NCBI RefSeq assembly: GCF_963921235.1
Contig: NC_086097.1
Span: 137,890,001 to 137,954,000, forward strand
DNA from: Mobula hypostoma
Lineage: Eukaryota
Length of the DNA stretch: 64,000 bases
Reading direction: 5' to 3'
In this document: positions 4,340 to 64,000 of the stretch, one piece after another
How positions within the stretch are numbered: the stretch's first letter is position 1
Layout of the letters: each line of letters opens with the position of its first letter
Notes under the pieces: generated by a model
The model's database searches: none
Told to the model about the DNA's origin: nothing
Seen by the model: the letters and a program-made list of their open reading frames with translations, nothing else
Made by a program: the position numbers and the translations under genes

Positions 4340-4545
4340 CTCTCATGGCCAGCAAAGTGATAATGAGCAGATCACTGCAGATTAAACATTGGGAAGGGCC
4401 TGAGGGAGAGTACCCAGCACTTCCAGCAGATCTGGCAGGTCTTCTGTGCCCGTCCAGAGAGGGCAGTCAGGACCTCAGCTTCAAAACTTGACGCCTTTGA
4501 CAGCTCAGCACAGCACTCAAATGTCAGTCTGGATTCTTGTGCTTA
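4340..4545 (-). mobile_element. DeuSINE-like fragment
   Basis: GTGATAATGAGCAGATC..GAGAGGGCAGTCAGGACCTCAG..TGTCAGTCTGGATT matches the other copies in the window. Confidence 0.5.
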
Positions 4546-5370
4546 GTCTCGGGGGACAAGGTCAGAATTCTCGTTTGCCTCTTTCAATACCGGATATGTT
4601 CTGTAACTGGTGGTGATAGGTTTGCCCCTGGAGGCTGGGCTCTTTGCAGTTGTTCAGACTTCCGTACAATGCCACTTTTTTTCTGGAGTATTCAGTTTCT
4701 TGTTAGCACAGGAGGTGGTCGCCTAGCCAATGAGTCCAAGAAGCTCCCGCTGGTACAATCCATCCCAATCCGTTCCAGGAAGCCCTGCAACTTACTTCAG
4801 GCCATCTGCGTTGAATTTTCTTAGTGTTTGGGCCGGAGCCAGGACTGGACGTGTTCCAGTCACAAGGTTGGGGTCCCAGTGGCTGCACCTTTTGTGGCTG
4901 AGTTGTAAATTGGTGGGAATTGTCATGGATCACAGCAGCAAAGTGGTAGGCTCTTCATTAACACTTTCAGTCAGTCTTTAAGGACAGGGCTAAATCACAG
5001 GAATAATCCAGCCATAAACAGCAAGCAAGGGCTTGGTGTCGTGAAAGATAGATGTATTATCTCCAGCAAAGGGACTGTTCTGCCCAACAGCTCTGTGCTG
5101 GCAGGCTATCTCAGCTTCTTTTACATCTCTCCCCACCACAATATCCTTCTCTTCCACTTGCCCTTCTGCTTTTCGTGCTTCCTCCTAAACCCTTTCCTGG
5201 CAATATAAACTTGAGGGAGATGTTGGGGGAAAGGAAGTTCACGGATACAGAATACAACAACATGACTCCAGGGATGAGAGACTTTGGCTTCATGTTGGAC
5301 TGGAGAAGTTCTGGTTGATGTCCCTGGAAGTGATGGAAATATTTTAAAATCCTGAAGGGAGCAGAATACC

Positions 5371-14484: not shown

Positions 14485-14930
14485 AAAGAAGCTTCTTCTA
14501 TTTAGGTAGCTCCGAGTCCAAGTCAGAAAGCACCTTTACAAGAATTGGCAGCTCACTATCAGACAGAGGTGATGCTTGGACATTGTCTGCTCATTGTGCC
14601 ATGAACACTGGCTGGGGCATCAAAGGAAGCTCCTCTGCACTTTAACAGAATAGTTGTGGGATCTTTTATGTCCAGTTGACACTGCTTATGGTCGGGTCCA
14701 GTTTAAAGCAGCAGGCCAGGAAGCATCTGTAGGAAGAAGTACAGTCGACGTTTTGGGCCGAGAACCTTCGTCAGGACTCAGCCAGAAATGTTGACTGTAC
14801 CTCTTCCTAGAGATGCTACCTGGCCTGCCGCGTTCACCAGCAACTTTTATCTGAGTTGCTTGAAATTTCAGCAACTGCAGATTTCCTTGTGTGTTCCAGT
14901 TTAAAGTTTAGCAAGAAATGGCCATGGTCC
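14485..14930 (-). mobile_element. DeuSINE-like fragment hosting a Penelope-type insertion
   Basis: GAATAGTTGTGGGATCTTTTATGTCCAG is the reverse complement of the Deu-domain AAAAGATCCCA motif. Confidence 0.5.
14709..14894 (+). mobile_element. Penelope-type fold-back hammerhead element
   Basis: Inverted arms; minus-strand motif AGTC-CTGACGA-AGGTTCTCGGCCC-AAAACGTC-GACT at 14741-14779; 12-bp TSD TCCAGTTTAAAG (14697-14708 and 14895-14906). Confidence 0.85.
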
Positions 14931-37157: not shown

Positions 37158-37188
<31 letters not shown>

Positions 37189-37375
37189 ACACTCACACAC
37201 ACACACACACACACACTCTCTCTCTCTCTCTCACACACACACATACACACACACACTCTCGCTCTCTCACACACACACAGAAACACACACACACACACAC
37301 ACACACACTCTCTCTCTCACACAAACACACACACACTCTCACACACACACTCACACACACACACACACACACACA

Positions 37376-37411
<36 letters not shown>

Positions 37412-37425
37412 CTCACACAAACACA

Positions 37426-37492
<67 letters not shown>

Positions 37493-37499
37493 GCACACA

Positions 37500-37530
<31 letters not shown>

Positions 37531-37575
37531 GCGCACACACTCTCTGTCTCTCACACACACACACACACGCACACA

Positions 37576-37613
<38 letters not shown>
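36182..37613. repeat. 1.4-kb compound (CA)n/(CT)n microsatellite
   Basis: Direct inspection; it explains the His/Thr and Cys/Val ORFs. Confidence 0.97.
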
Positions 37614-40773: not shown

Positions 40774-41097
40774 CACACAGTGGCCACTTTATTAGACACA
40801 CCTGTACACCTGCTCGCTAATGCAAATCAGCCAATCACGTGACAGCGGCTCAATGCATAAAAGCATCCAGACATGGTCAGGAGATCAGTTGCTGTTCAGA
40901 CCAAGCATCTGAGTGGTAAGAAAAATTGTGAGAAAAACAAGAAACATCCAGTGAGTGTGCAAAAATGCCTTCTTAATGAGAGAGGTCAGAGGAGAATGAC
41001 CAGACTTGTTCAAGCTGACAGTAACGCAAATAACCACGTTATATTGGTACTGTTCAGACAAGCATCTCTGACCGCACAACAGTGCCCACTGAGTGTA
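40774..41097 (+). mobile_element. Internally deleted Tc1-like DNA transposon
   Basis: CAGTGGCCACTTTATTAG left end and AGTGCCCACTGAGTG-TA right end; transposase remnant CLLNERGQRRMTRLVQAD. Confidence 0.85.
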
Positions 41098-41098
41098 T

Positions 41099-41384
41099 TA
41101 TTTATAGGGATCCATCAGTCTCGTGAGACCATAGATTTGCGCCTTGGGCAAGGTTGTATGGAAGACCGGCAGTTGCCCATGCTGCAAGTCTCCCCTCTCC
41201 ACGACGCCGATGTTGTCCAAGGGAAGGAGAAGGGCCGATACAGCTGGCACTGGTGTCGTCACAGAGCAATGTGTGGTTAAGTGCCTTGCTCAAGAACACA
41301 ACACGCTGCCTCAGCCAAGGCTCGAACTAGCGACCTTCAGATCACTAGACCACTGCCTTAAGCACTTGGCCACACGCCAACACA
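41099..41384 (-). mobile_element. tRNA-derived CORE-type SINE
   Basis: Minus strand: A box TGGCCAAGTG, B box GTTCGAGCC and CORE-like CTTGAGCAAGGCACTTAACC; 13-bp TSD with one mismatch. Confidence 0.8.
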
Positions 41385-41943
41385 CCACTGACTGTATATC
41401 ACCACTGCATCTTGAATCTAGATACTTGACCTCCCTCCCCAACAGCATGGACGACAGCAGTTTAAGAAGGTGCCTCATTTCCACATTTCACAGGACAGTT
41501 AGGAACACTGAGTGAATAGTGGCTTACTGGAGATGGCTACAGTCCGAGTTTTGATCACTGCCCTTCTGGCTCAGGGATGAGCGTTCTCTGGACTAAAACA
41601 TAGCTGCCTCATGACATTGACACAGTGAAGCGATTAGGTAAAAGTACTAAGTTTCTATATCGTGTGGATTTTCAACGTGGAAACACACAGAAAGCTGAGG
41701 GTAGTTTACGACGATCTGTTACGTTTTCTAAACACTTTCTTTGTCAGTGATTGCCTGAGGCTTCAAAGGGAAATCTTGTCAGCATGAATTAAGGATCAAT
41801 GTGATGTAAAGGAGCCAAATTAACATGGACACAGTTAGAAATGATTTTGTCCTAATTACTGATCATGGGCAATTGACACTGAATCTCCCACAGGTGATGA
41901 GTAAACTGGACTGCTTGGTAATTATTCCTATTCTGAAAAGAGA

Positions 41944-42221
41944 AAACTGTATCACAACTAGCTCATCACTGACCTACGACAGCCCAAACGACACGGCAGG
42001 GAATGAAACACTTTTAAACTGTAGTTCCTGTTCTAATGGAGGAGTCATTTTGGAAAGCAGGATCCCACACGTAGCAAGACAGGTAAGAGACTGCGCGAGG
42101 AACTGCAGACATCTCTCCTGCTCTTCAAAATATTTATCACCAGGAGCAGCAGACACAGCCACTGGGTAATACCTGATAAGGAAGCCAAACCCATTGACAG
42201 TGCAGAACTCCCTCAGCACTG
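41944..42221 (-). mobile_element. DeuSINE-like element contiguous with the satellite
   Basis: Minus strand: CAGTGCTGAGGGAGTTCTGCACTGTC..TATTTTGAAGAGCAGG..TTGCTACGTGTGGGATCCTGCT..ACTACAGTTTAAAAGTGTTTCATT; homologous to 30490-30560 and 16060-16355. Confidence 0.65.
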
Positions 42222-45200
42222 TCCATCCAACAGTCTGACACTCCCTCAGTACTGTTCATCCCACAGTGTGACATAACTCAGTATAGTCCATCCCACAGTG
42301 TGACACACCCTCAGTACTGTCCATCCCACAGTGTGACACTCCCTCAGTACTGTCCATCCCACAGTGTGACACTCCTTCAGTACTGTCCATCCCACAGTGT
42401 GACACTCCCTCAGTACCGTCCATCCCACAGTGTGACACTCCCTCAGTACCGTCCATCCCACAGTCTGACACTCCATCAGTACCGTCCATCCCATAGTGTG
42501 ACATTCCCTCAGTACTGCCCATCTCACAGTGTGACACTCCCTCAGTACTGTTCATCCCACAGTGTGACATAACTCAGTATAGTCCATCCCACAGTGTGAC
42601 ACACCCTCAGTACTGTCCATCCCACAGTGTGACACTCCCTCAGTACTGTCCATCCCACAGTGTGACACTCCCTCAGTACCGTCCATCCCACAGTGTGACA
42701 CTCCCTCAGTACTGTCCATCCCACAGTCTGACACTCCGTCAGTACCGTCCATCCCATAGTGTGACATTCCCTCAGTACTGTCCATCCCACAGTGTGACAC
42801 TCCCTCAGTACTGTCCATCCCACAGCGTTACACTCCCTCAGTACCGTCCCTCCCACAGTGTGACACTCCTTCAGTACTGTCCATCCCACAGTGTGACACT
42901 CCCTCAGTACCGTCCATCCCACAGTGTGACACTCCCTCAGTACCGTCCATCCCACAGTCTGACACTCCATCAGTACCGTCCATCCCATAGTGTGACATTC
43001 CCTCAGTACTGCCCATCTCACAGTGTGACACTCCCTCAGTACTGTTCATCCCACAGTGTGACATAACTCAGTATAGTCCATCCCACAGTGTGACACACCC
43101 TCAGTACTGTCCATCCCACAGTGTGACACTCCCTCAGTACTGTCCATCCCACAGTGTGACACTCCCTCAGTACCGTCCATCCCACAGTGTGACACTCCCT
43201 CAGTACTGTCCATCCCACAGTCTGACACTCCGTCAGTACCGTCCATCCCATAGTGTGACATTCCCTCAGTACTGTCCATCCCACAGTGTGACACTCCCTC
43301 AGTACTGTCCATCCCACAGCGTTACACTCCCTCAGTACCGTCCCTCCCACACTGTGACACTCCCTCCGTACTGTCCACACACAGTGTGACACTCCCTCAG
43401 TACTGCCCATCCCACACTGTGACACTCCCTCAGTACTGTCCATCACACAGTGTGAAACTCACTCACTACTGTCCATCCCACAGTGTGAAACTCCCTCAGT
43501 ACTATCCATCCCACAGTCTGACACTCCCTCAGTACTGTCCATCCCACAGTGTGACACTCCCTCAATACTGTCCATCCCACAGTGTGACACTCCCTCCGTA
43601 CTGTCCACACACAGTGTGACACTCCCTCAGTACTGTCTGTCCCACACTGTGACACTCCCTCAGTACTGCCCTTCCCACGGTGTGAAATTCCCTCAGTGCT
43701 GTCCATCCCACAGAGTGACACTCCCTCAGTACCGTCTATCCCACAGCGTGACACTCCCTCAGTACCGTCCATCCCACAATGTGACACTCCCTCAATACTG
43801 TCCATCCCACAGAGTGACACTCCCTGAGTACTGTCCATCCCATGGTGTGACACTCCCTAGTACTGTCCATCCCACAGTGTGACACTCAGTCAGTACTGTC
43901 CATCCCACAGTGTGACAGTCCCTCAGTACTGTCCACACCACACTGTGACACTCCCTCAGTACTGTCCATTCTACAGTGTGACACTCTCTCAGTACTGTCC
44001 ATTCCACAGTGTGACACTCCCTCAGTACCGTCCATCCCCCAATGTGACACTCCCTCAGTCTTGTCCATCTCACAGTGCGACACTCCCACTGTACTGTCCA
44101 TCCCACAGTGTGACCCTCCGTCAGTACTGTCCATCTCACAGTGTGACTCCCCCTCAGTACTGTCCATCCCACGGTGTGACAACCCCTCAGTGCTGTCCAT
44201 CCCACAGTGTGACACTCCCTCAGTACTGTCCATCTCACAGTGTGACACTCCCTCAGTACTGTCCATCCCACAGTGTGACACTCCCTCAGTACTGTCCATC
44301 CCACAGTGTGACAGTCCCTCAGTACTGTCCACACCACAGTGTGACACTCCCTCAGTACTGTCCATTCTACAGTCTGACACTCTCTCAGTACTGTCCATTC
44401 CACAGTGTGACACTCCCTCAGTACCGTCCATCCCCCAATGTGACACTCACTCAGTCTTGTCCATCTCACAGTGCGACACTCCCTCTGTACTGTCCATCCC
44501 ACAGAGTGACCCTCCGTCAGTACTGTCCATCTCACAGTGTGACTCCCCCTCAGTACTGTCCATCCCACAATGTGACACACCCTCAGTACTGCCCTTCCCA
44601 GGGTGTGAAATTCCCTCAGTACTGTCCATCCCACAGAGTGACACTCCCTCAGTACAGTCCATCCCACAGTGTGACACTCCCTCAGTACTGTCCATCTCAC
44701 AGTGTGACACTCCCTCAGTACTGTCCATCCCACAGTGTGACAGTCCCTCAGTACTGTCCATCCCACAGTGTGACACTCCCTCAGTACTGTCCATCCCACA
44801 GTGTGACATTCGCTCCGTACCGTCCATACACAGTGCGACACTTGGTCAGTACTGCCCGTCCCACACTGTGACACTCCCACAGTACTGCCCTTCCCAGGGT
44901 GTGAAATTCCCTCAGTACTGTCCATCCCACAGAGTGACAGTCCCTCAGTACTGTCCATCTCACAGTGTGACTCCCCCTCAGTACTGTCCATCCCACAATG
45001 TGACACACCCTCAGTACTGCCCTTCCCAGTGTGTGAAATTCCCTCAGTACTGTCCATCCCACAGAGTGACACTCCCTCAGTACAGTCCATCCCACAGTGT
45101 GACACTCCCTCAGTACTGTCCATCTCACAGTGTGACACTCCCTCAGTACTGTCCATCCCACAGTGTGACAGTCCCTCAGTACTGTCCATCCCACAGTGTG

Positions 45201-48200
45201 ACACTCCCTCAGTACTGTCCATCCCACAGTGTGACATTCGCTCCGTACCGTCCACACACAGTGCGACACTTGGTCAGTACTGCCCGTCCCACACTGTGAC
45301 ACTCCCACAGTACTGCCCTTCCCAGGGTGTGAAATTCCCTCAGTACTGTCCATCCCACAGAGTGACAGTCCCTCAGTACTGTCCATCCCACAGTGTGACA
45401 CTCCCTCAGTACTGTCCATCTCACAGTGTGACACTCCCTCAGTACTGTCCATCCCACAGTGTGACAGTCCCTCAGTACTGTCCATCCCACAGTGTGACAC
45501 TCCCTTAGTACTGTCCATCCCACAGTGTGACACTCTCTCAGTACCGTCCATCCCACAGTGTGACAGTCCCTCAGTACCGTCCATCCCACAGTGTGACAGT
45601 CCCTCAGTACTGTCCATTCTACAGTCTGACACTCCCTCTGTACTGTCCATCCCACAGTGTGACCCTCCGTCAGTACTGTCCATCTCACACTTTGACTCCC
45701 CCTCAGTACTGTCCATCCCATGGTGTGACACCCCCTCAGTACTGTCCATCCCACAGTGTGACACTCCCTCAGGACCGTCCATCCCACAATGTGACACTCC
45801 CTCAATACTGTCTATCCCACGGTGTGACACTCCCCAGTACTGCCCGTCCCACACTGTGACACTCCCTCAGTACTGCCCTTCCCAGGGTGTGAAATTCCCT
45901 CAGTATTGTCCATCCCACAGTGTGACACTCCCTCAGTACTGTCCATCTCACAGTGACACTCCCTCAGTACTGTCCATCCCACAGTGTGACAGTCCCTCAG
46001 GACTGTCCATTCCACAGTGTGACACTCCCTCAGTACTGTCCATCCCATAGTGTGACAGTCCCTCAGTACTGTCCACACCACAGTGTGACACTCCCTCAGT
46101 ACTGTCCATTCTACATTCTGACACTCGCTCAGTACTGTCCATTCCACAGTGTGACACTCCCTCAGTACCGTCCATCCCCCAATGTGACACTCCCTCAGTC
46201 TTGTCCATCTCACAGTGTGACAATCCCTCAGTATTGTCCATTCTACAGTGTGACACTCTCTCAGTACTGTCCATTCCACAGTGTGACACTCCCTCAGTAC
46301 TGCCCTTCCCGCGGTGTGAAATTCCCTCAGTACTGTCCATCCCACAGAGTGACAGTCCCTCAGTACTGTCCATCCCACAGTGTGACACTCCCTCAGTACT
46401 GTCCATCTCACAGTGTGACACTCCCTCAGTACTGTCCATCCCACAGTGTGACAGTCCCTCAGTACTGTCCATCCCACAGTGTGACACTCCCTCAGTACTG
46501 TCCATCCCACAGTGTGACAGTCCCTCAGTACTGTCCACACACAGTGTGACACTCCCTCAGTACTGTCTGTCCCACACTGTGACACTCCCTCAGTACTGCC
46601 CTTCCCACGGTGTGAAATTCCCTCAGTGTTGTCCATCCCACAGAGTGACACTCCCTCAGTACCGTCTATCCCACAGCGTGACACTCCCTCAGTACCGTCC
46701 AACCCACAATGTGACACTCCCTCAATACTGTCCATCCCACAGAGTGACACTCCCTGAGTACTGTCCATCCCATGGTGTGACACTCCCAAGTACTGTCCAT
46801 CCCACAGTGTGACACTCCCTCAGTACCGTCCATCCCACAGTGTGACACTCCGTCAGGACCGTCCATCCCACAATGTGACACTCCCTCAATACTGTCTATC
46901 CCACGGTGTGACACTCCCCAGTACTGCCCGTCCCACACTGTAACACTCCCTCAGTACTGCCCTTCCCAGGGTGTGAAATTCCCTCAGTACCGTCCATCCC
47001 ACAGTGTGACACTCCCTCAGTACTGTCCATCCCACAGTGTGATAGTCCCTCAGTACTGTCCATCCCACAGTGTGACACTCAGTCAGTACTGTCCATCCCA
47101 CAGTGTGACAGTCCCTCAGTACTGTCCAAACCACACTGTGACACTCCCTCAGTACTGTCCATTCTACAGTGTGACACTCTCTCAGTACCGTCCATCCCCC
47201 AATGTGACACTCCCTCAGTCTTGTCCATCTCACAGTACGACACTCCCTCTGTACTGTCCATCCCACAGTGTGACCCTCCGTCAGTACTGTCCATCTCACA
47301 GTGTGACTCCCCCTCAGTACTGCCCGCCCCACACTGTGACACTCCCTCAGTACTGCCCTTCCCAGGATGTGAAATTCCCTCAGTACTGTCCATCCCACAG
47401 AGTGACACTCCCTCAGTACTGTCCATCTCACAGTGTGACACTCCCTCAGTACTGTCCATCCCACAGTGTGACACTCCCTCAGTACTGTCCATCCCACAGT
47501 GTGACAGTCCCTCAGTACCGTCCATCCCCCAATGTGACACTCACTCAGTCTTGTCCATCTCACAGTGCGACACTCTCTCTGTACTGTCCATCCCACAGTG
47601 TGACCCTCCGTCAGTACTGTCCATCTCACAGTGTGACACTCCCTCAGTACTGTCCATCCCACAGTGTGACAGTCCCTCTGTACTGTCCACACCACAGTGT
47701 GACCCTCCGTCAGTACTGTCCATCTCACAGTTTGACTCCCCCTCAGTACTGTTCATCCCATGGTGTGACACCCCCTCAGTACTGTCCATCCCACAGTGTG
47801 ACATTCGCTCCGTACCGTCCACACACAGTGCGACACTTGGTCAGTACTGCCCGTCCCACACTGTGACACTCCCTCAGTACTGCCCTTCCCAGGGTGTGAA
47901 ATTCCCTCAGTACTGTCCATCCCACAGAGTGACAGTCCCTCAGTACTGTCCATCCCACAGTGTGACACTCCCTCAGTACTGTCCATCTCACAGTGTGACA
48001 CTCCCTCAGTACTGTCCATCCCACAGTGTGACAGTCCCTCAGTACTGTTCAACCCACAGTGTGACACTCCCTCAGTACTGTCCATCACACAGTGTGACAC
48101 TCCCTCAGTACTGTCCATCCCACAGTGTGACAGTCCCTCAGTACTGTCCACACCACAGTGTGACACTCCCTCAGTACCGTCCATCCCACAGTGTGACCCT

Positions 48201-51200
48201 CCGTCAGTACTGTCCATCTCACACTTTGACTCCCCCTCAGTACTGTCCATCCCATGGTGTGACACCCCCTCAGTACTGTCCATCCCACAGTGTGACATTC
48301 CCTCCGTACCGTCCACACACAGTGCGTCACTTGGTCAGTACTGCCCGTCCCACACTGGAACACTCCCTCAGTACTGCCCTTCCCAGGGTGTGAAATTCCC
48401 TCAGTACTGTCCATCCCACAGTGTGACCCTCCCTCAGTACTGTCCATCTGACAGTGACACTCCCTCAGTACTGTCCATCCCACAGTGTGACAGTCCCTCA
48501 GGACTGTCCATCCCACAGTGTGACACTCCCTCAGTACTGTCCATCCCATAGTGTGACAGTCCCTCAGTACTGTCCACACCACAGTGTGACACTCCCTCAG
48601 TACTGTCCATCCTACAGTCTGACACTCCATCAGTACTGTCCATTCTACAGTGTGACACGCCCTCAGTACCGTCCATCACCCAATGTGACACTCCCTCAGT
48701 CTTGTCCATCTCACAGTGTGACAATCCCTCAGTACTGTCCATTCCACAGTGTGACACTCCCTCAGTTCCGTCCATCCCCCAATGTGACACTCCCTCAGTC
48801 TTGTCTATCCCACGGTGTGACACTCCCCAGTACTGCCCGTCCCACACTGTGACACTCCCTCAGTACTGCCCTTCCCAGGGTGTGAAATTCCCTCAGTATT
48901 GTCCATCCCACAGTGTGACACTCCCTCAGTACTGTCCATCTCACAGTGACACTCCCTCAGTACTGTCCATCCCACAGTGTGACAGTCCCTCAGCACTGTC
49001 CATCCCACAGTGTGACACTCCCTCAGTACTGTCCATCCCATAGTGTGACAGTCCCTCAGTACTGTCCATCCCACAGTGTGACACTCCCTCAGTACTGTCC
49101 ATCTCACAGTGTGACAGTCCCTCAGTACTGTCCACCCCACAGTGTGACACTCCCTCAGTACTGTGCATTCTACAGTCTGACACTCTCTCAGTACTGTCCA
49201 TTCCACAGTGTGACACTCCCTCAGTACCGTCTATCCCCCAATGTGACACTCCCTCAGTCTTGTCCATCTCACAGTGCGACACTCTCTCTGTACTGTCCAT
49301 CCCACAGTGTGACACTCCGTCAGTACTGTCCATCTCACAGTGTGACTCCCCCTCAGTACTGTCCATCCCACAGTGTGACACTCCCTCAGTACTGCCCTTC
49401 CCAGGGTGTGAAATTCCCTCAGTACTGTCCATCCCACAGAGTGACACTCCCTCAGTACAGTCCATCCCACAGTGTGACACTCCCTCAGTGCTGTCCATCT
49501 CACAGTGTGACACTCCCTCAGTACTGTCCATCCCACAGTGTGACAGTCCCTCAGTACTGTCCATCCCACAGTGTGACACTCCCTCAGTACTGTCCATCAC
49601 ACAGTGTGACAGTCCCTCAGTGCTGTCCACACCAGAGTGAGACACTCCCTCAGTACTGTCCATTCTACAGTCTGACACTCCCTCTGTACTGTCCATCCCA
49701 CAGTGTGACCCTACGTCAGTACTGTCCATCTCACAGTGTGACTCCCCCTCAGTACCGTCCATCCCATGGTGTGACACCCCCTCAGTACTATCCATCCCAC
49801 AGTGTGACATTCCCTCCGTACTGTCCACACACAGTGCGACACTTGCACAGTACTGCCCTTCCCACAGTGTGACACTCCCTGAGTACTGTCCATCCCACAG
49901 TGTGACACTCCCCCAGTACTGTCCATCCCACAGTGTGACACTCCCTCAGTACTGTCCATCTCACGGAGTGACGCTCACTCAGTACCGTCCATCCCACAGT
50001 GTGATACTCCCTCAGTACTGCCCGTCCCATACTGTGACACTCCCTCAGTACTGTCCATCCCACAGTGTGACACTCCTTGAGTACCGTCCATCCCATAGTT
50101 TGACACTCCCTCAGTACTGTCCATCCCACAGTGTGACACTCCCTCAGTACCGTCCATCCCAGAATGTGACACTCCCTCAGTACTGTCCATCCCACAGAGT
50201 GACGCTCCCTCAGTACCGTCCATCCCACAGTATGACACTCCCTCAGTACCGTCCATCCCAGAATGTGACAGTTCCTCAGTCTTGTCCATCTCACAGTGCG
50301 ACACTCCCTCAGTACTGTCCATCCCACAGTGTAACACTCTGTCAGTACTGTCCATCCCGCAGTGTGACACTCCCTCAGTACTGTCCATCCCACAGAGTGA
50401 CGCTCCCTCAGTACCGTCCATCCCACAGTCTGACACTCCCTCAGTACCGTCCATCCCAGAATGTGACACTTCCTCAGTCTTGTCCATCTCACAGTGCGAC
50501 ACTCCCTCAGTACTGTCCATCCCACAGTGTGACCCTTCGTCAGTACTGTCCATCTCACAGTGTGACTCCCCCTCAGTACTGTCCATCCCATGGTGTGACA
50601 CCCCCTCAGTACTGTCCATCCCACAGTGTGACATTCCCTCCGTACCGTCCACACACAGTGCGTCACTTGGTCAGTACTGCCCGTCCCAGACTGGGACACT
50701 CCCTCAGTACTGCCCTTCCCAGGGTGTGAAATTCCCTCAGTACTGTCCATCCCACAGTGTGACACTCCCTCAGTACTGTCCATCTCACAGTGACACTCCC
50801 TCAGTACTGTCCATCCCACAGTGTGACAGTCCCTCAGGACTGTCCATCCCACAGTGTGACACTCCCTCAGTACTGTCCATCCCATAGTGTGACAGTCCCT
50901 CAGTACTGTCCACACCACAGTGTGACACTCCCTCAGTACTGTCCATCCTACAGTCTGACACTCCATCAGTACTGTCCATTCTACAGTGTGACACGCCCTC
51001 AGTACCGTCCATCCCCCAATGTGACACTCCCTCAGTCTTGTCCATCTCACAGTGTGACAATCTCTCAGTACTGTCCATTCCACAGTGTGACACTCCCTCA
51101 GTACCGTCCATCCCCCAATGTGACACTCCCTCAGTCTTGTCTATCCCACGGTGTGACACTCCCCAGTACTGCCCGTCCCACACTGTGACACTCCCTCAGT

Positions 51201-54200
51201 ACTGCCCTTCCCAGGGTGTGAAATTCCCTCAGTATTTTCCATCCCACAGTGTGACACTCCCTCAGTACTGTCCATCTCACAGTGACACTCCCTCAGTACT
51301 GTCCATCCCACAGTGTGACAGTCCCTCAGGACTGTCCATCCCACAGTGTGACACTCCCTCAGTACTGTCCATCCCATAGTGTGACACTCCCTCAGTACTG
51401 TGCATTCTACAGTCTGACACTCTCTCAGTACTGTCCATTCCACAGTGTGACACTCCCTCAGTACCGTCCATCCCCCAATGTGACACTCCCTCAGTGTTGT
51501 CCATCTCACAGTGCGACACTCCCTCTGTACTGTCCATCCCACAGTGTGACCCTCCGTCAGTACTGTCCATCTCACAGTGTGACTCCCCCTCAGTACTGTC
51601 CATCCCACGGTGTGACAACCCCTCAGTGCTGTCCATCCCACAGTGTGACACTCCCTCAGTACTGTCCATCTCACAGTGTGACACTCCCTCAGTACTGTCC
51701 ATCCCACAGTGTGACACTCCCTCAGTACTGTCCATCCCACAGTGTGACAGTCCCTCAGTACTGTCCACACCACAGTGTGACACTCCCTCAGTACTGTCCA
51801 TTCTACAGTCTGACACTCTCTCAGTACTGTCCATTCCACAGTGTGACACTCCCTCAGTACCGTCCATCCCCCAATGTGACACTCACTCAGTCTTGTCCAT
51901 CTCACAGTGCGACACTCCCTCTGTACTGTCCATCCCACAGAGTGACCCTCCGTCAGTACTGTCCATCTCACAGTGTGACTCCCCCTCAGTACTGTCCATC
52001 CCACAATGTGACACACCCTCAGTACTGCCCTTCCCAGGGTGTGAAATTCCCTCAGTACTGTCCATCCCACAGAGTGACACTCCCTCAGTACAGTCCATCC
52101 CACAGTGTGACACTCCCTCAGTACTGTCCATCTCACAGTGTGACACTCCCTCAGTACTGTCCATCCCACAGTGTGACAGTCCCTCAGTACTGTCCATCCC
52201 ACAGTGTGACACTCCCTCAGTACTGTCCATCCCACAGTGTGACATTCGCTCCGTACCGTCCACACACAGTGCGACACTTGGTCAGTACTGCCCGTCCCAC
52301 ACTGTGACACTCCCACAGTACTGCCCTTCCCAGGGTGTGAAATTCCCTCAGTACTGTCCATCCCACAGAGTGACAGTCCCTCAGTACTGTCCATCTCACA
52401 GTGTGACTCCCCCTCAGTACTGTCCATCCCACAATGTGACACACCCTCAGTACTGCCCTTCCCAGGGTGTGAAATTCCCTCAGTACTGTCCATCCCACAG
52501 AGTGACACTCCCTCAGTACAGTCCATCCCACAGTGTGACACTCCCTCAGTACTGTCCATCTCACAGTGTGACACTCCCTCAGTACTGTCCATCCCACAGT
52601 GTGACAGTCCCTCAGTACTGTCCATCCCACAGTGTGACACTCCCTCAGTACTGTCCATCCCACAGTGTGACATTCGCTCCGTACCGTCCACACACAGTGC
52701 GACACTTGGTCAGTACTGCCCGTCCCACACTGTGACACTCCCACAGTACTGCCCTTCCCAGGGTGTGAAATTCCCTCAGTACTGTCCATCCCACAGAGTG
52801 ACAGTCCCTCAGTACTGTCCATCCCACAGTGTGACACTCCCTCAGTACTGTCCATCTCACAGTGTGACACTCCCTCAGTACTGTCCATCCCACAGTGTGA
52901 CAGTCCCTCAGTACTGTCCATCCCACAGTGTGACACTCCCTTAGTACTGTCCATCACACAGTGTGACACTCCCTCAGTACTGTCCATCCCACAGTGTGAC
53001 AGTCCCTCAGTACCGTCCATCCCACAGTGTGACAGTCCCTCAGTACTGTCCATTCTACAGTCTGACACTCCCTCTGTACTGTCCATCCCACAGTGTGACC
53101 CTCCGTCAGTACTGTCCATCTCACACTTTGACTCCCCCTCAGTACTGTCCATCCCATGGTGTGACACCCCCTCAGTACTGTCCATCCCACAGTGTGACAC
53201 TCCCTCAGGACCGTCCATCCCACAATGTGACACTCCCTCAATACTGTCTATCCCACGGTGTGACACTCCCCAGTACTGCCCGTCCCACACTGTGACACTC
53301 CCTCAGTACTGCCCTTCCCAGGGTGTGAAATTCCCTCAGTATTGTCCATCCCACAGTGTGACACTCCCTCAGTACTGTCCATCTCACAGTGACACTCCCT
53401 CAGTACTGTCCATCCCACAGTGTGACAGTCCCTCAGGACTGTCCATTCCACAGTGTGACACTCCCTCAGTACTGTCCATCCCATAGTGTGACAGTCCCTC
53501 AGTACTGTCCACACCACAGTGTGACACTCCCTCAGTACTGTCCATTCTACATTCTGACACTCGCTCAGTACTGTCCATTCCACAGTGTGACACTCCCTCA
53601 GTACCGTCCATCCCCCAATGTGACACTCCCTCAGTCTTGTCCATCTCACAGTGTGACAATCCCTCAGTATTGTCCATTCTACAGTGTGACACTCTCTCAG
53701 TACTGTCCATTCCACAGTGTGACACTCCCTCAGTACTGCCCTTCCCGCGGTGTGAAATTCCCTCAGTACTGTCCATCCCACAGAGTGACAGTCCCTCAGT
53801 ACTGTCCATCCCACAGTGTGACACTCCCTCAGTACTGTCCATCTCACAGTGTGACACTCCCTCAGTACTGTCCATCCCACAGTGTGACAGTCCCTCAGTA
53901 CTGTCCATCCCACAGTGTGACACTCCCTCAGTACTGTCCATCCCACAGTGTGACAGTCCCTCAGTACTGTCCACACACAGTGTGACACTCCCTCAGTACT
54001 GTCTGTCCCACACTGTGACACTCCCTCAGTACTGCCCTTCCCACGGTGTGAAATTCCCTCAGTGTTGTCCATCCCACAGAGTGACACTCCCTCAGTACCG
54101 TCTATCCCACAGCGTGACACTCCCTCAGTACCGTCCAACCCACAATGTGACACTCCCTCAATACTGTCCATCCCACAGAGTGACACTCCCTGAGTACTGT

Positions 54201-57200
54201 CCATCCCATGGTGTGACACTCCCAAGTACTGTCCATCCCACAGTGTGACACTCCCTCAGTACCGTCCATCCCACAGTGTGACACTCCGTCAGGACCGTCC
54301 ATCCCACAATGTGACACTCCCTCAATACTGTCTATCCCACGGTGTGACACTCCCCAGTACTGCCCGTCCCACACTGTAACACTCCCTCAGTACTGCCCTT
54401 CCCAGGGTGTGAAATTCCCTCAGTACCGTCCATCCCACAGTGTGACACTCCCTCAGTACTGTCCATCCCACAGTGTGATAGTCCCTCAGTACTGTCCATC
54501 CCACAGTGTGACACTCAGTCAGTACTGTCCATCCCACAGTGTGACAGTCCCTCAGTACTGTCCAAACCACACTGTGACACTCCCTCAGTACTGTCCATTC
54601 TACAGTGTGACACTCTCTCAGTACCGTCCATCCCCCAATGTGACACTCCCTCAGTCTTGTCCATCTCACAGTACGACACTCCCTCTGTACTGTCCATCCC
54701 ACAGTGTGACCCTCCGTCAGTACTGTCCATCTCACAGTGTGACTCCCCCTCAGTACTGCCCGCCCCACACTGTGACACTCCCTCAGTACTGCCCTTCCCA
54801 GGATGTGAAATTCCCTCAGTACTGTCCATCCCACAGAGTGACACTCCCTCAGTACTGTCCATCTCACAGTGTGACACTCCCTCAGTACTGTCCATCCCAC
54901 AGTGTGACACTCCCTCAGTACTGTCCATCCCACAGTGTGACAGTCCCTCAGTACCGTCCATCCCCCAATGTGACACTCACTCAGTCTTGTCCATCTCACA
55001 GTGCGACACTCTCTCTGTACTGTCCATCCCACAGTGTGACCCTCCGTCAGTACTGTCCATCTCACAGTGTGACACTCCCTCAGTACTGTCCATCCCACAG
55101 TGTGACAGTCCCTCTGTACTGTCCACACCACAGTGTGACCCTCCGTCAGTACTGTCCATCTCACAGTTTGACTCCCCCTCAGTACTGTTCATCCCATGGT
55201 GTGACACCCCCTCAGTACTGTCCATCCCACAGTGTGACATTCGCTCCGTACCGTCCACACACAGTGCGACACTTGGTCAGTACTGCCCGTCCCACACTGT
55301 GACACTCCCTCAGTACTGCCCTTCCCAGGGTGTGAAATTCCCTCAGTACTGTCCATCCCACAGAGTGACAGTCCCTCAGTACTGTCCATCCCACAGTGTG
55401 ACACTCCCTCAGTACTGTCCATCTCACAGTGTGACACTCCCTCAGTACTGTCCATCCCACAGTGTGACAGTCCCTCAGTACTGTTCAACCCACAGTGTGA
55501 CACTCCCTCAGTACTGTCCATCACACAGTGTGACACTCCCTCAGTACTGTCCATCCCACAGTGTGACAGTCCCTCAGTACTGTCCACACCACAGTGTGAC
55601 ACTCCCTCAGTACCGTCCATCCCACAGTGTGACCCTCCGTCAGTACTGTCCATCTCACACTTTGACTCCCCCTCAGTACTGTCCATCCCATGGTGTGACA
55701 CCCCCTCAGTACTGTCCATCCCACAGTGTGACATTCCCTCCGTACCGTCCACACACAGTGCGTCACTTGGTCAGTACTGCCCGTCCCACACTGGAACACT
55801 CCCTCAGTACTGCCCTTCCCAGGGTGTGAAATTCCCTCAGTACTGTCCATCCCACAGTGTGACACTCCCTCAGTACTGTCCATCTGACAGTGACACTCCC
55901 TCAGTACTGTCCATCCCACAGTGTGACAGTCCCTCAGTACTGTCCATCCCACAGTGTGACACTCCCTCAGTACTGTCCATCCCATAGTGTGACAGTCCCT
56001 CAGTACTGTCCACACCACAGTGTGACACTCCCTCAGTACTGTCCATCCTACAGTCTGACACTCCATCAGTACTGTCCATTCTACAGTGTGACACGCCCTC
56101 AGTACCGTCCATCACCCAATGTGACACTCCCTCAGTCTTGTCCATCTCACAGTGTGACAATCCCTCAGTACTGTCCATTCCACAGTGTGACACTCCCTCA
56201 GTTCCGTCCATCCCCCAATGTGACACTCCCTCAGTCTTGTCTATCCCACGGTGTGACACTCCCCAGTACTGCCCGTCCCACACTGTGACACTCCCTCAGT
56301 ACTGCCCTTCCCAGGGTGTGAAATTCCCTCAGTATTGTCCATCCCACAGTGTGACACTCCCTCAGTACTGTCCATCTCACAGTGACACTCCCTCAGTACT
56401 GTCCATCCCACAGTGTGACAGTCCCTCAGCACTGTCCATCCCACAGTGTGACACTCCCTCAGTACTGTCCATCCCATAGTGTGACAGTCCCTCAGTACTG
56501 TCCATCCCACAGTGTGACACTCCCTCAGTACTGTCCATCTCACAGTGTGACAGTCCCTCAGTACTGTCCACCCCACAGTGTGACACTCCCTCAGTACTGT
56601 GCATTCTACAGTCTGACACTCTCTCAGTACTGTCCATTCCACAGTGTGACACTCCCTCAGTACCGTCTATCCCCCAATGTGACACTCCCTCAGTCTTGTC
56701 CATCTCACAGTGCGACACTCTCTCTGTACTGTCCATCCCACAGTGTGACACTCCGTCAGTACTGTCCATCTCACAGTGTGACTCCCCCTCAGTACTGTCC
56801 ATCCCACAGTGTGACACTCCCTCAGTACTGCCCTTCCCAGGGTGTGAAATTCCCTCAGTACTGTCCATCCCACAGAGTGACACTCCCTCAGTACAGTCCA
56901 TCCCACAGTGTGACACTCCCTCAGTGCTGTCCATCTCACAGTGTGACACTCCCTCAGTACTGTCCATCCCACAGTGTGACAGTCCCTCAGTACTGTCCAT
57001 CCCACAGTGTGACACTCCCTCAGTACTGTCCATCACACAGTGTGACAGTCCCTCAGTGCTGTCCACACCAGAGTGAGACACTCCCTCAGTACTGTCCATT
57101 CTACAGTCTGACACTCCCTCTGTACTGTCCATCCCACAGTGTGACCCTACGTCAGTACTGTCCATCTCACAGTGTGACTCCCCCTCAGTACCGTCCATCC

Positions 57201-60200
57201 CATGGTGTGACACCCCCTCAGTACTATCCATCCCACAGTGTGACATTCCCTCCGTACTGTCCACACACAGTGCGACACTTGCACAGTACTGCCCTTCCCA
57301 CAGTGTGACACTCCCTGAGTACTGTCCATCCCACAGTGTGACACTCCCCCAGTACTGTCCATCCCACAGTGTGACACTCCCTCAGTACTGTCCATCTCAC
57401 GGAGTGACGCTCACTCAGTACCGTCCATCCCACAGTGTGATACTCCCTCAGTACTGCCCGTCCCATACTGTGACACTCCCTCAGTACTGTCCATCCCACA
57501 GTGTGACACTCCTTGAGTACCGTCCATCCCATAGTTTGACACTCCCTCAGTACTGTCCATCCCACAGTGTGACACTCCCTCAGTACCGTCCATCCCAGAA
57601 TGTGACACTCCCTCAGTACTGTCCATCCCACAGAGTGACGCTCCCTCAGTACCGTCCATCCCACAGTATGACACTCCCTCAGTACCGTCCATCCCAGAAT
57701 GTGACAGTTCCTCAGTCTTGTCCATCTCACAGTGCGACACTCCCTCAGTACTGTCCATCCCACAGTGTAACACTCTGTCAGTACTGTCCATCCCGCAGTG
57801 TGACACTCCCTCAGTACTGTCCATCCCACAGAGTGACGCTCCCTCAGTACCGTCCATCCCACAGTCTGACACTCCCTCAGTACCGTCCATCCCAGAATGT
57901 GACACTTCCTCAGTCTTGTCCATCTCACAGTGCGACACTCCCTCAGTACTGTCCATCCCACAGTGTGACCCTTCGTCAGTACTGTCCATCTCACAGTGTG
58001 ACTCCCCCTCAGTACTGTCCATCCCATGGTGTGACACCCCCTCAGTACTGTCCATCCCACAGTGTGACATTCCCTCCGTACCGTCCACACACAGTGCGTC
58101 ACTTGGTCAGTACTGCCCGTCCCAGACTGGGACACTCCCTCAGTACTGCCCTTCCCAGGGTGTGAAATTCCCTCAGTACTGTCCATCCCACAGTGTGACA
58201 CTCCCTCAGTACTGTCCATCTCACAGTGACACTCCCTCAGTACTGTCCATCCCACAGTGTGACAGTCCCTCAGCACTGTCCATCCCACAGTGTGACACTC
58301 CCTCAGTACTGTCCATCCCATAGTGTGACAGTCCCTCAGTACTGTCCATCCCACAGTGTGACACTCCCTCAGTACTGTCCATCTCACAGTGTGACAGTCC
58401 CTCAGTACTGTCCACCCCACAGTGTGACACTCCATCAGTACTGTCCATTCTACAGTGTGACACGCCCTCAGTACCGTCCATCCCCCAATGTGACACTCCC
58501 TCAGTCTTGTCCATCTCACAGTGTGACAATCTCTCAGTACTGTCCATTCCACAGTGTGACACTCCCTCAGTACCGTCCATCCCCCAATGTGACACTCCCT
58601 CAGTCTTGTCTATCCCACGGTGTGACACTCCCCAGTACTGCCCGTCCCACACTGTGACACTCCCTCAGTACTGCCCTTCCCAGGGTGTGAAATTCCCTCA
58701 GTATTTTCCATCCCACAGTGTGACACTCCCTCAGTACTGTCCATCTCACAGTGACACTCCCTCAGTACTGTCCATCCCACAGTGTGACAGTCCCTCAGGA
58801 CTGTCCATCCCACAGTGTGACACTCCCTCAGTACTGTCCATCCCATAGTGTGACACTCCCTCAGTACTGTGCATTCTACAGTCTGACACTCTCTCAGTAC
58901 TGTCCATTCCACAGTGTGACACTCCCTCAGTACCGTCCATCCCCCAATGTGACACTCCCTCAGTCTTGTCCATCTCACAGTGCGACACTCCCTCTGTACT
59001 GTCCATCCCACAGTGTGACACTCCGTCAGTACTGTCCATCTCACAGTGTGACTCCCCCTCAGTACTGTCCATCCCACAGTGTGACACTCCCTCAGTACTG
59101 CCCTTCCCAGTGTGTGAAATTCCCTCAGTACTGTCCATCCCACAGAGTGACACTCCCTCAGTACAGTCCATCACACAGTGTGACACTCCCTCAGTGCTGT
59201 CCATCTCACAGTGTGACACTCCCTCAGTACTGTCCATCCCACAGTGTGACAGTCCCTCAGTACTGTCCATCCCACAGTGTGACACTCCCTCAGTACTGTC
59301 CATCCCACAGTGTGACAGTCCCTCAGTGCTGTCCACACCACAGTGTGACACTCCCTCAGTACTGTCCATTCTACAGTCTGACACTCCCTCTGTACTGTCC
59401 ATCCCACAGTGTGACCCTCCGTCAGTACTGTCCATCTCACAGTGTGACTCCCCCTCAGTACCGTCCATCCCATGGTGTGACACCCCCTCAGTACTATCCA
59501 TCCCACAGTGTGACATTCCCTCCGTACTGTCCACACACAGTGCGACACTTGCACAGTACTGCCCTTCCCACAGTGTGACACTCCCTGAGTACTGTCCATC
59601 CCACAGTGTGACACTCCCTCAGTCCTGTCCATCCGACAGTGTGACACTCCCTCAGTACTGTCCATCTCACGGAGTGACGCTCACTAAGTACCGTCCATCC
59701 CACAGTGTGATACTCCCTCAGTACTGCCCGTCCCATACTGTGACACTCCCTCAGTACTGTCCATCCCACAGTGTGACACTCCTTGAGTACCGTCCATCCC
59801 ATAGTTTGACACTGCCTCAGTACTGTCCATCCCACAGAGTGACACTCCCTCAGTACCGTCCATCCCAGAATGTGACACTCCCTCAGTACTGTCCATCCCA
59901 CAGAGTGACGCTCCCTCAGTACCGTCCATCCCAGAATGTGACAGTTCCTCAGTCATGTCCATCTCACAGTGCGACACTCCCTCAGTACTGTCCATCCCAC
60001 AGTGTAACACTCTGTCAGTACTGTCCATCCCGCAGTGTGACACTCCCTCAGTACTGTCCATCCCAGAATGTGACACTTCCTCAGTCTTGTCCATCTCACA
60101 GTGCGACACTCCCTCAGTACCGTCCATCCCACAGTGTGACACTCCCTCAGTACCGTCCATCCCAGAATGTGACACTTCCTCAGTCTTGTCCATCTCACAG

Positions 60201-63200
60201 TGAGACACTCCCTCAGTACTGTCCATCCCACAGTGTGACACTCCCTCAGTACAGTCCATCCCACAGTGTGACACTCCCTCAGTACTGTCCATCCCACAGT
60301 GTGACACTCCCTCAGTACTGTCCATCCCACAGTGTGACACTCCCTCAGTACTGTCCATCTCACGGAGTGACGCTCACTCAGTACCGTCCATCCCACAGTG
60401 TGATACTCCCTCAGTACTGCCCGTCCCATACTGTGACACTCCCTCAGTACTGTCCATCCCACAGTGTGACACTCCCTGAGTACCTTCCATCCCATAGTTT
60501 GACACTCCCTCAGTACTGTCCATCCCACAGTGTGACACTCCCTCAGTACCGTCCATCCCAGAATGTGACACTCCCTCAGTACTGTCCATCCCACAGAGTG
60601 ACGCTCCCTCAGTTCCGTCCATCCCACAGTGTGACACTCCCTCAGTACCGTCCATCCCAGAATGTGACACTTCCTCAGTCTTGTCCATCTCACAGTGCGA
60701 CACTCCCTCAGTACTGTCCATACCACAGTGTAACACTCTGTCAGTACTGTCCATCCCGCAGTGTGACACTCCCTCAGTACTGTCCATCCCACAGAGTGAC
60801 GCTCCCTCAGTACCGTCCATCCCACAGTGTGACACTCCCTCAGTACCGTCCATCCCAGAATGTGACACTTCCTCAGTACTGTCCATCTCACAATGTGACA
60901 CTCCCTCAATACTCTCCATCCCACAGAGTGACACTCCCTGAGTAATTTCCATCCCACAGTGTGACACCCCCTCAGTACTGTCCATCCCACGGTGTGACAC
61001 TCCCCAGTACTGTCCATCCCACAGTGCGACACTCCCTCTGTACTGTCCATCCCACAGTGTGACCCTTCGTCAGTACTGTCCATCTCACAGTGTGACTCTC
61101 CCTCAGTACTGTCCATCCCACGGTGTGACACCCCCTCAGTACTGTCCATCCCACAGTGTGACACTCCCTCAGTACTGTCCATCTCACAGTGTGACACTCC
61201 CTCAGTACTGTCCATCCCACAGTGTGACAGTCCCTCAGTACTGTCCATCCCACAGTGTGACACTCCCTCAGTACTGTCCATCTCACAGTGTGACACTCCC
61301 TCAGTACTGTCCATCCCAGAGTGTGACACTCCCTCAGTACTGTCCATCCCACAGTGTGACAGTCCCTCAGTACTGTCCATCCCACAGTGTGACACTCCCT
61401 CAGTACTGTCCATCTCAGAGTGTGACACTCCCTCAGTACTGTCCATCCCACAGTCTGACATTCCCTCAGTACTGTCCATTCTACAGTCTGACACTCTCTC
61501 CGTACTGTCCATTCCACAGTGTGACACTCCCTTAGTACCGTCTATCCCCCAATGTGACACTCCCTCAGTCTTGTCCATCTCACAGTGCGACACTCCCTCT
61601 GTACTGTCCATCCCACAGTGTGACCCTCCGTCAGTACTGTCCATCTCACAGTGTGACTCCCCCTCAGTACTGTCCATCCCATGGTGTGACACCCCTTCAG
61701 TACTGTCCATCCCACAGTGTGACATTCCCTCAGTGCTGTCCATCCCACAGTGTGACACTCCCTCCGTACTGTCCACACACAGTGTGACACTCCCTCAGTA
61801 CTGTCTGTCCCACACTGTGACACTCCCTCAGTACTGCCTTTCCCGCGGTGTAAAATCCCCTCAGTTCTGTCCATCCCACAGAGTGACACTCCCTCAGTAC
61901 TGTCCATCCCACAGTGTGACACTCCCTCAGTACCGTCCATCCCACAATGTGACACTCCCTCAATACTGTCCATCCCACAGAGTGACACTCCCTGAGTAAT
62001 TTCCATCCCACAGTGTGACACCCCCTCAGTACTGTCCATCCCACGGTGTGACACTCCCCAGTACTGTCCATCCCACAGTGCGACACTCATCTGTACTGTC
62101 CATCCCACAGTGTGACCCTTCGTCAGTTCTGTCCATCTCAGAGTGTGACTCTCCCTCAGTACTGTCCATCCCACGGTGTGACACCCCCTCAGTACTGTCC
62201 ATCCCACAGTGTGACACTGCCTCAGTACTGTCCATCTCACAGTGTGACACTCCCTCAGTACTGTCCATCCCACAGTGTGACACTCCCTCAGTACTGTCCA
62301 TCCCACAGTGTGACACTCCCTCAGTACTGTCCATCCCACAGTGTGACACTCCCTCAGTACTGTCCATCCCACAGTGTGACACTCCCTCAGTACTATCCAA
62401 CCTGCAGAGTGACATTCCCTCCGTACTGTCCACACACACTGTGACACTCCCTCAGTACTGCCTTTCCCAGGGTGTGAAATTCCCTAAGTACTGTCCATCC
62501 CACACTGTGACACTCCCTCAGTACTGTCCATCCCACAGTGCGACACTCATCTGTACTGTCCATCCCACAGTGTGACCCTTCGTCAGTTCTGTCCATCTCA
62601 GAGTGTGACTCTCCCTCAGTACTGTCCATCCCACGGTGTGACACCCCCTCAGTACTGTCCATCCCACAGTGTGACACTGCCTCAGTACTGTCCATCCTCA
62701 CAGTGTGACACTCCCTCAGTACTGTCCATCCCACAGTGTGACACTCCCTCAGTACTGTCCATCCCACAGTGTGACACTCCCTCAGTACTGTCCATCTCAC
62801 AGTGTGACACTCCCTCAGTACTGTCCATCCCACAGTGTGACACTCCCTCAGTACTATCCAACCTGCAGAGTGACATTCCCTCCGTACTGTCCACACACAC
62901 TGTGACACTCCCTCAGTACTGCCTTTCCCAGGGTGTGAAATTCCCTAAGTACTGTCCATCCCACAGTGTGGCAGTCCCTCAGTACTGTCCATCCCACAGT
63001 GTGACACTCCCTCAGTACTGTCCATCTCACAGTGCGACACTCCCTCAGTACTGTCCTTCCCACAGTGTGACAGTCCCTCGGTGCTGTCCATCCCACAGTG
63101 TGACATTCCCTCCATACTGTCCACACACAGTGCGACACGTGGTCAGTACTGCCCGTCCCACACTGTGACCCTGCCTCAGTACTACCCTTCCCAGGGTGTG

Positions 63201-64000
63201 AAATTCCCTCAGTCCTGTCCATCCCACAGAGTGACACTCCCTCAGTACCGTCCATCCCACAGTGTGACATTCCCTCAGTACCGTCCATCCCACAATGTGA
63301 CACTCCCTCAATACTGTCCATCCCACAGAGTGACACTGCCTGAGTACTGTCCATCCCACGGTTTGACAACCCCTCAGTACTGTCCATCCCGCGGTGTGAC
63401 ACTCCCCAGTACTGCCCGTCCCACACTGTGACACTCCGTCAGTACTGCCCTTCCCAGGGTGTGCAATTCGCTCAGTACTGTCCATCCCACAGAGTGACAG
63501 TCCCTCAGTACCGTCCATCCGACAGTGTGACACTCCCTCAGTACTGTCCATCCCACAGTGTGACAGTCCCTCAGTACTGTCCACACCACAGTGTGACACT
63601 CCGTCAGTACTGTCCATTCTACAGTCTGACACTCTCTCAGTACTGTCCATTCCACAGTGTGACACTCCCCCAGTACCGTGCATCCCCCAATGTGACACTC
63701 CCTCAGTCTTGTCCATCTCACAGTGTGACTCCCCCTCAGTACTGTCCATCCCACGGTGTGACACCCCCTCAGTACTGTCCATCCTATGGTGTGACACTCC
63801 CTCCATACTGTCCACACACAGTGTGACACACCCTCCATACTGTCCACACACAGTGTGACACTCCCTCAGTACTGTCCATCCCACAGTGTGACACTCCTTG
63901 AGTACCTTCCATCCCATAGTTTGACACTCCCTCAGTACTGTCCTTCCCACAGTGTGACACTCCCTCAGTACTGTCCATCTCATGGAGTTACGCTCCCTCA
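42196..64000. repeat. 33-bp tandem satellite, consensus CAGTACTGTCCATCCCACAGTGTGACACTCCCT, about 660 monomers, running off the window
   Basis: Direct inspection; 11-aa periodic ORFs; occasional 31-, 32- and 34-bp variants. Confidence 0.99.

What the first reader, a model, noticed from the sequence alone, without database searches (positions are those of the whole stretch)
41944..42300. The 22-kb satellite appears to be born in place from a DeuSINE core
Seen: the flank is an antisense SINE remnant homologous to dispersed copies in this window. Its GACAGTGCAGAACTCCCTCAGCACTG (42196-42221) runs in register into the first monomer, with ACAGTG..ACTCCCTCAGTACTG conserved. From my recollection of the SacSINE1-like consensus, this segment lies between two GCAC microhomologies 33 bp apart. 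Inference: the SINE segment seeds tandem amplification, so many such arrays could arise independently at SINE loci.
Basis: partly seen in the sequence, partly recalled or inferred. Interest (0 to 1): 0.7.

Follow-up and report, generated by a model that had tools for sequence, protein, structure and literature searches.

The report
SINE-derived satellite anchored in SINE remnant
A long array of a 33-base repeat starts exactly where that repeat's ancestral sequence lies in an old, decayed mobile element, but the repeat unit is the version already common in this and three related genomes, so the element more likely served as a landing site for an existing satellite than as the birthplace of a new one.

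Summary
The array is real: 662 33-bp units from 42197 to the window end, joined to a single-copy flank by one source contig. The flank is a decayed antisense DeuSINE remnant, judged by eye against a published Deu alignment and by a post hoc motif test. The unit corresponds to the 33 bp just 5' of the Deu domain, not to the domain itself. De novo birth from this copy is doubtful. The array consensus differs from the local SINE segment at 11 of 33 bases, but from the family consensus seen in four species at 1-3 of 33. The SINE-type CAG triplet is in 1 of 662 units. One related species shares the array start; another has the satellite family but no long array next to this flank. Best reading (0.45): an existing SINE-derived satellite colonised a homologous SINE copy and then expanded locally. 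Birth here followed by homogenisation remains possible (0.25). The far end lies outside the window and no genome was held. SINE-derived satellites are described in squamates (PMC10702118). This scan already noted the same kind of event on other DNA of this genome (e1-7814136).

The parts
42197..64000 (.). 33-bp satellite array, 662 units, mean 92% identical to its consensus; runs off the window end
42196..42221 (-). junction unit: SINE-type first monomer, the only one of 662 with the CAG triplet; the switch to satellite sequence lies within about 42206-42221
42189..42221 (-). 33-bp unit-equivalent of the local SINE copy, immediately 5' of the Deu domain; 11 of 33 bases differ from the array consensus
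42108..42191 (-). decayed Deu-domain remnant with internal deletions
   Evidence: by-eye comparison; binomials
41989..42107 (-). probable 3' body or tail remnant of the same SINE; family tail not tested
   Evidence: extra contigs lie on 41989-42050 in 4 of 4 runs; 42056-42077 matches 30491-30512 at 19/22, E 0.32
42230..43348 (.). edge block of 34 units with private variants in 9- and 15-unit higher-order repeats; 10 of its 12 unit types are not found in the rest of the array
44001..58900 (.). near-exact tandem duplication of about 7.4 kb (226 units); 9 mismatches in 6,500 bp over 44001-50500
4420..4560 (-). comparator: independent unexpanded Deu SINE remnant with a CAG-type, partly deleted segment before its Deu domain and non-array sequence beyond it
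   Evidence: 11/11 match to AmnSINE1_HS Deu at 4476-4466 by eye; matches the junction at p 0.0025 and the array unit at p 0.6
14656..14674 (-). comparator: Deu motif of another SINE remnant
   Evidence: 17/19 to EbuSINE1 by eye

Best explanation
The 33-bp unit descends from the segment just 5' of the Deu domain of a SacSINE1-like SINE (supported). That origin is old: the family with its derived unit is already abundant in all four species examined (shown). At this locus an old antisense SINE copy that still matched the unit over about 25 bp was entered by the existing family through homology-guided repair, either interlocus gene conversion or reintegration of a satellite circle, with the crossover inside the shared stretch 42206-42221 (inferred). 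The array then grew and drifted locally by unequal exchange, giving a private spacer variant, higher-order repeats and a 7.4-kb duplication (patterns shown, mechanism inferred). No function is implied; it is most likely neutral repeat turnover.
For: The array consensus differs from the local SINE 33-mer at 11 of 33 bases, and the closest array 33-mer still differs at 9. It differs from the loose-end family consensuses of runs X1, X7, X13 and X14 at 1-3 of 33 (by hand, table 7). CAG occurs in 1 of 662 units and no intermediate unit follows it. CAG-type tandem units look rare in all 4 runs: depth is 30-129 in bin 42175-42205 against 8e4-2.9e5 in the next bin. The independent copy at 4488-4524 matches the junction (p 0.0025) and not the array unit (p 0.6). 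The orthologous contig of organism D (88% identical) runs on 663 letters beyond 42117 unbroken, whereas the A and B contigs end 51 and at most 38 letters into the array; D nevertheless holds the family at high depth. Precedent: Rsp-like enters 1.688 clusters by microhomology (PMC7403614, passages).
Against: The far end was not seen. D and E both stop aligning at 42117, in the middle of a Deu motif, so D is not a clean unexpanded ortholog. An insertion or deletion there could hide or remove an array, the 663 letters were not printed, and 6 joints and 179 loose ends were not shown. E's contig ends 246 letters on, which is compatible with an array start. X7 record 26 and X14 record 18 each have 873 other letters and then a match from 42195. 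If they are one locus (inferred, not shown), SINE-type junctions can be old. Terminal units escape homogenisation, so one relic unit also fits birth in place. PMC10702118 explains similar structures by duplication followed by concerted evolution. An unnamed predicted protein (P0002) reads like CAG-type tandem units, so an older CAG-type array that was later converted is not excluded.
Confidence: 0.45

Rival explanations
1. Born in place: this SINE copy duplicated its own 33-bp segment by slippage at short direct repeats and amplified. Interlocus concerted evolution later replaced nearly all units with the family type.
For: The junction is in register, exactly 33 bp from the position of the Deu-start microhomology. 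The first unit is a relic. The array start is shared with organism B. Note e1-7814136 reports both SINE halves around another 33-bp array (not tested here). Squamate sSats with extended terminal units are read this way (PMC10702118).
Against: Unit 2 is already fully satellite-type, and 0 of the 661 later units carry CAG. The local SINE spacer differs from the array spacer at 6 of 8 bases. No long array lies within about 600 letters in D, although D has the family.
Confidence: 0.25
2. A SINE subfamily already carrying two or more internal units retrotransposed to many sites, and some copies then expanded locally, like the VNTR of SVA elements (analogy recalled).
For: It explains the shared register, the SINE-type first unit and the shared derived units at several loci (further junction-like contigs X7 26 and 28, X14 18). 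SINEs with ~30-nt internal duplications are mentioned in PMC10702118.
Against: The comparator copy at 4420-4560 has no duplication. The flank is very decayed while the units match the present family. SacSINE1 activity is dated old in C. milii (PMC5499810).
Confidence: 0.15
3. A single ectopic crossover or rearrangement joined this SINE copy to a pre-existing array, so only one junction exists and the SINE 5' head is not at the far end.
For: It gives the same sharp switch inside shared homology. Most squamate sSats have only one extended terminal unit. The synteny break at 42117 in D and E shows that the region has been rearranged.
Against: Note e1-7814136 reports both halves at another locus (untested here). 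B shares the junction region, so the event would predate the A/B split.
Confidence: 0.12
4. Coincidence: the first unit is only a diverged edge monomer, and the flank's likeness to a SINE is chance.
For: Pairwise matches to window copies are not significant. A 19/25 match to some rotation of the unit occurs by chance at 39740. Deu matches were counted by eye and the motifs chosen post hoc.
Against: Two collinear Deu matches lie at the expected place (p 0.02 after offsets and 1e-6 nominal). An independent Deu copy has the same CAG-type segment in the same position.
Confidence: 0.03

Closest known systems
SINE-derived satellites (sSat1-3) of squamates (Vassetzky, Kosushkin, Ryskov 2023, PMC10702118; parts 1-4 of 5 read)
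   Same: A tandem unit from an internal SINE segment; a terminal unit that extends into SINE sequence; long arrays homogenised within and between loci; alternating sub-variants; one unit shared across related species (snake sSat3).
   Different: The unit is 33 bp against 67-290 nt. The source is a Deu-type SINE in a cartilaginous fish. The SINE flank is far more decayed than the units. Subtelomeric position could not be tested.
SacSINE1 / DeuSINE superfamily (PMC5499810 parts 1-2 of 6; Deu alignment from PMC7245038 supplement Fig. S4; Nishihara 2006 not read)
   Same: A Deu-domain remnant in the flank; SacSINE1-like elements are reported in skate, sharks and chimaera.
   Different: The head is not visible, the L2-type tail was not tested, and no SacSINE1 consensus was available from a tool. 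The unit lies 5' of the Deu domain.
Rsp-like spread into 1.688 clusters in Drosophila simulans (Sproul et al. 2020, PMC7403614; passages)
   Same: A satellite seeded at new sites through short homology to an abundant dispersed repeat, with gene conversion or eccDNA proposed.
   Different: There the target is an unrelated satellite with 4-7 bp microhomology. Here it would be the satellite's own parent SINE with about 25 bp of homology, and the mechanism is inferred only.

Membership tests
DeuSINE (flank) | Deu central domain | tested here: met
   20/43 and 15/19 by eye against the published rows at collinear places; pattern hit, 0 of 100 shuffles (post hoc). Moderate strength; no profile search was possible.
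DeuSINE (flank) | tRNA- or 5S-derived head with pol III boxes | not testable with these tools
   It would lie beyond the array, outside the window; no genome held. ARAGORN finds 0 tRNA genes in the window.
SacSINE1 | 3' tail homologous to L2-2_CM and overall identity to the SacSINE1 consensus | not testable with these tools
   No consensus obtained: supplement unavailable, not found (one file not searched) or 42.
DeuSINE (flank) | dispersed homologous copies | tested here: inconclusive
   Pairwise z at most 2.0 against 5 of 5 candidates. Two candidates match published Deu motifs. Extra contigs lie on 41989-42050 in 4 of 4 runs.
SINE-derived satellite (sSat) | at least 4 head-to-tail middle units in a homogeneous array | tested here: met
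   662 units, 92% mean identity to consensus
SINE-derived satellite (sSat) | unit homologous to a SINE segment | tested here: met
   20/25 to the SINE-type junction unit, which matches an independent Deu copy at p 0.0025; indirect, no consensus used
SINE-derived satellite (sSat) | terminal unit extends into SINE sequence | tested here: met
   Left end only: the Deu remnant continues from 42191. Right end not visible.
SINE-derived satellite (sSat) | subtelomeric preference | not testable with these tools
   Distance to the chromosome end is unknown; earlier notes place the window at least 127 Mb into its piece.
Array born de novo from the local copy | units carry the local copy's own sequence states | tested here: not met
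   11/33 differences; CAG in 1 of 662; closest unit differs at 9. Later homogenisation could mask this.

The most novel reading that the evidence does not exclude
A major ray satellite descends from 33 bp of an ancient DeuSINE and now spreads by homing back into dispersed copies of its parent SINE. The very numerous old SINE copies act as pre-placed landing sites, and array positions are predictable from SINE positions and their remaining identity to the unit.
Probability: 0.35. Interest if true: 0.62.

Novelty: new member of a known kind. Interest (0 to 1): 0.36.

Why it matters
How satellites reach new loci is an open question, and PMC10702118 states that it is unknown whether SINE-derived satellites occur outside squamates. 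This family gives a chondrichthyan case with a diagnostic triplet (CAG in the SINE, TGA in the satellite) that marks each junction. Birth in place and colonisation can therefore be told apart genome-wide with existing ray assemblies. No function is indicated, and the scan has already recorded a clearer two-sided example.

Tried and rejected
No whole genome was held, so the far end, other arrays and SINE consensus building were out of reach. Rfam gave 0 gathering-level hits in the window and 4 chance-level hits in 41000-42400. Junction-pattern scans found 0 hits in viral contigs, 0 in prokaryote genomes and 1 in metagenomes; that locus, L001, is a single unit-like match in bacterial-looking DNA and was treated as chance. 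Protein searches with translated array frames gave 2, 0 and 1 (self) hits, with no taxonomic names. A multiple alignment and pairwise tests of 5 candidate SINE remnants, picked by short motifs, were not significant. The Deu part of the flank against the 4.4-kb copy was no better than background (34% of windows score as high). Array DNA folds no better than shuffles (z -0.11 and 0.52). No RNA holder was listed for 41400-42200, which is not evidence on expression. A candidate exon at 41894-42082 was considered and set aside: no Pfam hit and a 1-base insertion in organism D. An apparent excess of A-specific changes near the array (6 in 206 against 4 in 478 among displayed rows) is not significant (p 0.07). 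Literature searches listed no paper describing this satellite. The library lacks most subscription papers, and Repbase, Dfam and unseen supplements (PMC5499810; PMC4824008 file 1; the bioRxiv preprints) may hold it.

Full report
Setting. The window is repeat-rich animal DNA with LINE fragments (endonuclease and RT domains at 18346-19947). Earlier scan notes call the genome a ray (unchecked). No whole genome was held, so everything rests on the window, four public runs and papers.

The array. TRF finds a 33-bp array from 42207 to the window end, 662 copies. Phased in the SINE register it has 662 units from 42197, on average 2.6 differences from consensus, 65 of them exact. No unit differs at 8 or more positions, so there are no foreign insertions. 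The first 34 units after the junction form a block with private variants in 9- and 15-unit repeats; 10 of its 12 unit types are absent from the rest. A 7,436-bp segment is duplicated almost exactly (9 mismatches in 6,500 bp). This is either a recent unequal exchange or an assembly artefact.

The junction is real. One contig of the source run X1 covers 41400-42247 with no difference, at the depth of the unique flank (X1 may be the sample the window came from, so it checks the assembly only).

The flank. I compared the minus strand by eye with the Deu alignment in the supplement of PMC7245038 (Fig. S4; main text not read). From 42191 down, 20 of 43 ungapped positions match AmnSINE1_HS (p 0.0018, or 0.02 for 11 offsets). 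At 42126-42108, 15 of 19 match EbuSINE1. A pattern of three Deu motifs, chosen after seeing the match, hits once in the window and in 0 of 100 shuffles. Two other remnants match the same alignment by eye: 11/11 at 4476-4466 and 17/19 at 14674-14656. All four runs add contigs on 41989-42050. The flank is therefore a decayed antisense Deu-type SINE, with moderate support.

Where the unit comes from. Deu position 1 maps to 42191, so the unit-equivalent 42189-42221 lies just 5' of the Deu domain. The independent copy near 4.5 kb has a similar segment in the same position. It matches the junction (p 0.0025 in 2,000 shuffles; 30 of 8,420 overlapping window 37-mers score as high) and does not match the array unit (p 0.6). 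Both carry CAG where the satellite has TGA. However, the published Deu start maps exactly 33 bp before the point where array sequence takes over, which fits the claim.

Was it born here? The array consensus differs from the local SINE 33-mer at 11 of 33 bases, and the closest array 33-mer differs at 9. CAG occurs in 1 of 662 units, TGA in 606 and CGA in 33. Unit 2 is already satellite-type. In one search all 4 runs (organisms A, B, D, E; B, D and E are about 95, 88 and 83% identical to A in the flank) pile very high depth on the units: 2.9e5-7.0e5 in bin 42237-42267 against 5-46 on the flank. The tool warns that this is no copy number. Their loose-end consensuses show the same derived unit, 1-3 bases from the local array consensus and 8 from the local SINE segment (counted by hand from the 24 rows shown; 179 were not shown). 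Depth on 42175-42205 is only 30-129, so CAG-type tandem units are rare in all four. The unit in this array is thus the established family unit with a local spacer change, and not an amplified copy of the adjacent SINE.

Orthologues. B's contig follows the flank to 42187 and then joins a unit, so the array start is shared by A and B. D's contig aligns to 42117 and runs on for 663 letters without breaking, whereas the A and B contigs end 51 and at most 38 letters into the array. D has no long array there despite having the family. This is weaker than it looks. D and E both stop at 42117, inside a Deu motif, which points to a shared insertion, deletion or divergence; their further letters were not printed; and E's contig ends 246 letters on, which is compatible with an array. 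Other contigs show non-array DNA running into units in the same register (X7 records 26 and 28, X14 record 18). Records 26 and 18 each have 873 such letters, perhaps one old shared locus (inferred).

Mechanism. Shown: SINE-like origin of the unit, in-register anchoring, family-type units, and local higher-order structure. Inferred: entry of the existing family into a still-homologous SINE copy by gene conversion or circle reintegration, then unequal exchange (0.45). Rivals: birth here with full later homogenisation (0.25), a SINE subfamily with built-in units (0.15), a one-sided rearrangement (0.12), chance (0.03). Finding both SINE halves around an array, as note e1-7814136 reports for another locus (not tested here), would exclude the rearrangement but would not separate colonisation from birth in place.

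Comparison with what is known. It works like the squamate sSats of PMC10702118 (parts 1-4 of 5 read) and meets the features that could be tested. The unit is shorter than theirs and comes from a Deu-type SINE. The colonisation step has a precedent in PMC7403614 (passages). Passages of PMC10468316, PMC11406177, PMC2746220, PMC11481361, 10.1101/2025.06.08.657570 and 10.64898/2026.10.27.761883 and searches showed no description of this satellite; repeat databases were not available. Verdict: a real feature and a new member of a known kind, already noted elsewhere in this genome by the scan. Interest 0.36.

Noticed in passing
window 41894-42082 (+): Exon-like 189-bp open stretch between an acceptor-like AG and a consensus GT donor, overlapping the antisense SINE (ORF 41810-42169, 119 aa). 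No Pfam hit. B has an in-frame 9-bp deletion and D a 1-bp insertion. Probably chance.
   Followed up: partly
window 44001-58900: 7,436-bp near-exact tandem duplication inside the array; a recent event or an assembly artefact.
   Followed up: partly
window 42196-42223: Perfect 8-bp inverted repeat spanning the junction unit; 42160-42230 folds better than 198 of 200 shuffles (z -2.6). Could favour breaks or slippage; array DNA shows no such signal.
   Followed up: partly
window 42117/42118: Organisms D and E both stop aligning at exactly this place, inside a Deu motif; a shared rearrangement, not resolved.
   Followed up: no
window 41130-41390 (-): A second, better preserved short repeat with a tRNA-like look, in antisense 600 bp from the Deu remnant; family not determined.
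   Followed up: no
window 4330-4560, 14560-14700, 28770-28950, 30440-30650, 35840-36040: All five candidate Deu-type remnants, and the flank, appear to lie on the minus strand; three of the five are tentative.
   Followed up: no
window 36200-37612: 1.4-kb interrupted (CA)n tract, 706 dinucleotide copies.
   Followed up: no
window 42197-64000: Four of the six reading frames of the consensus unit have no stop codon, giving ORFs up to 493 aa in the 41.8-46 kb part listed that gene finders could mispredict; P0002 looks like such a product with CAG-type units.
   Followed up: partly
L001 472-496: Single exact match to the junction pattern in bacterial-looking metagenome DNA; treated as chance.
   Followed up: no
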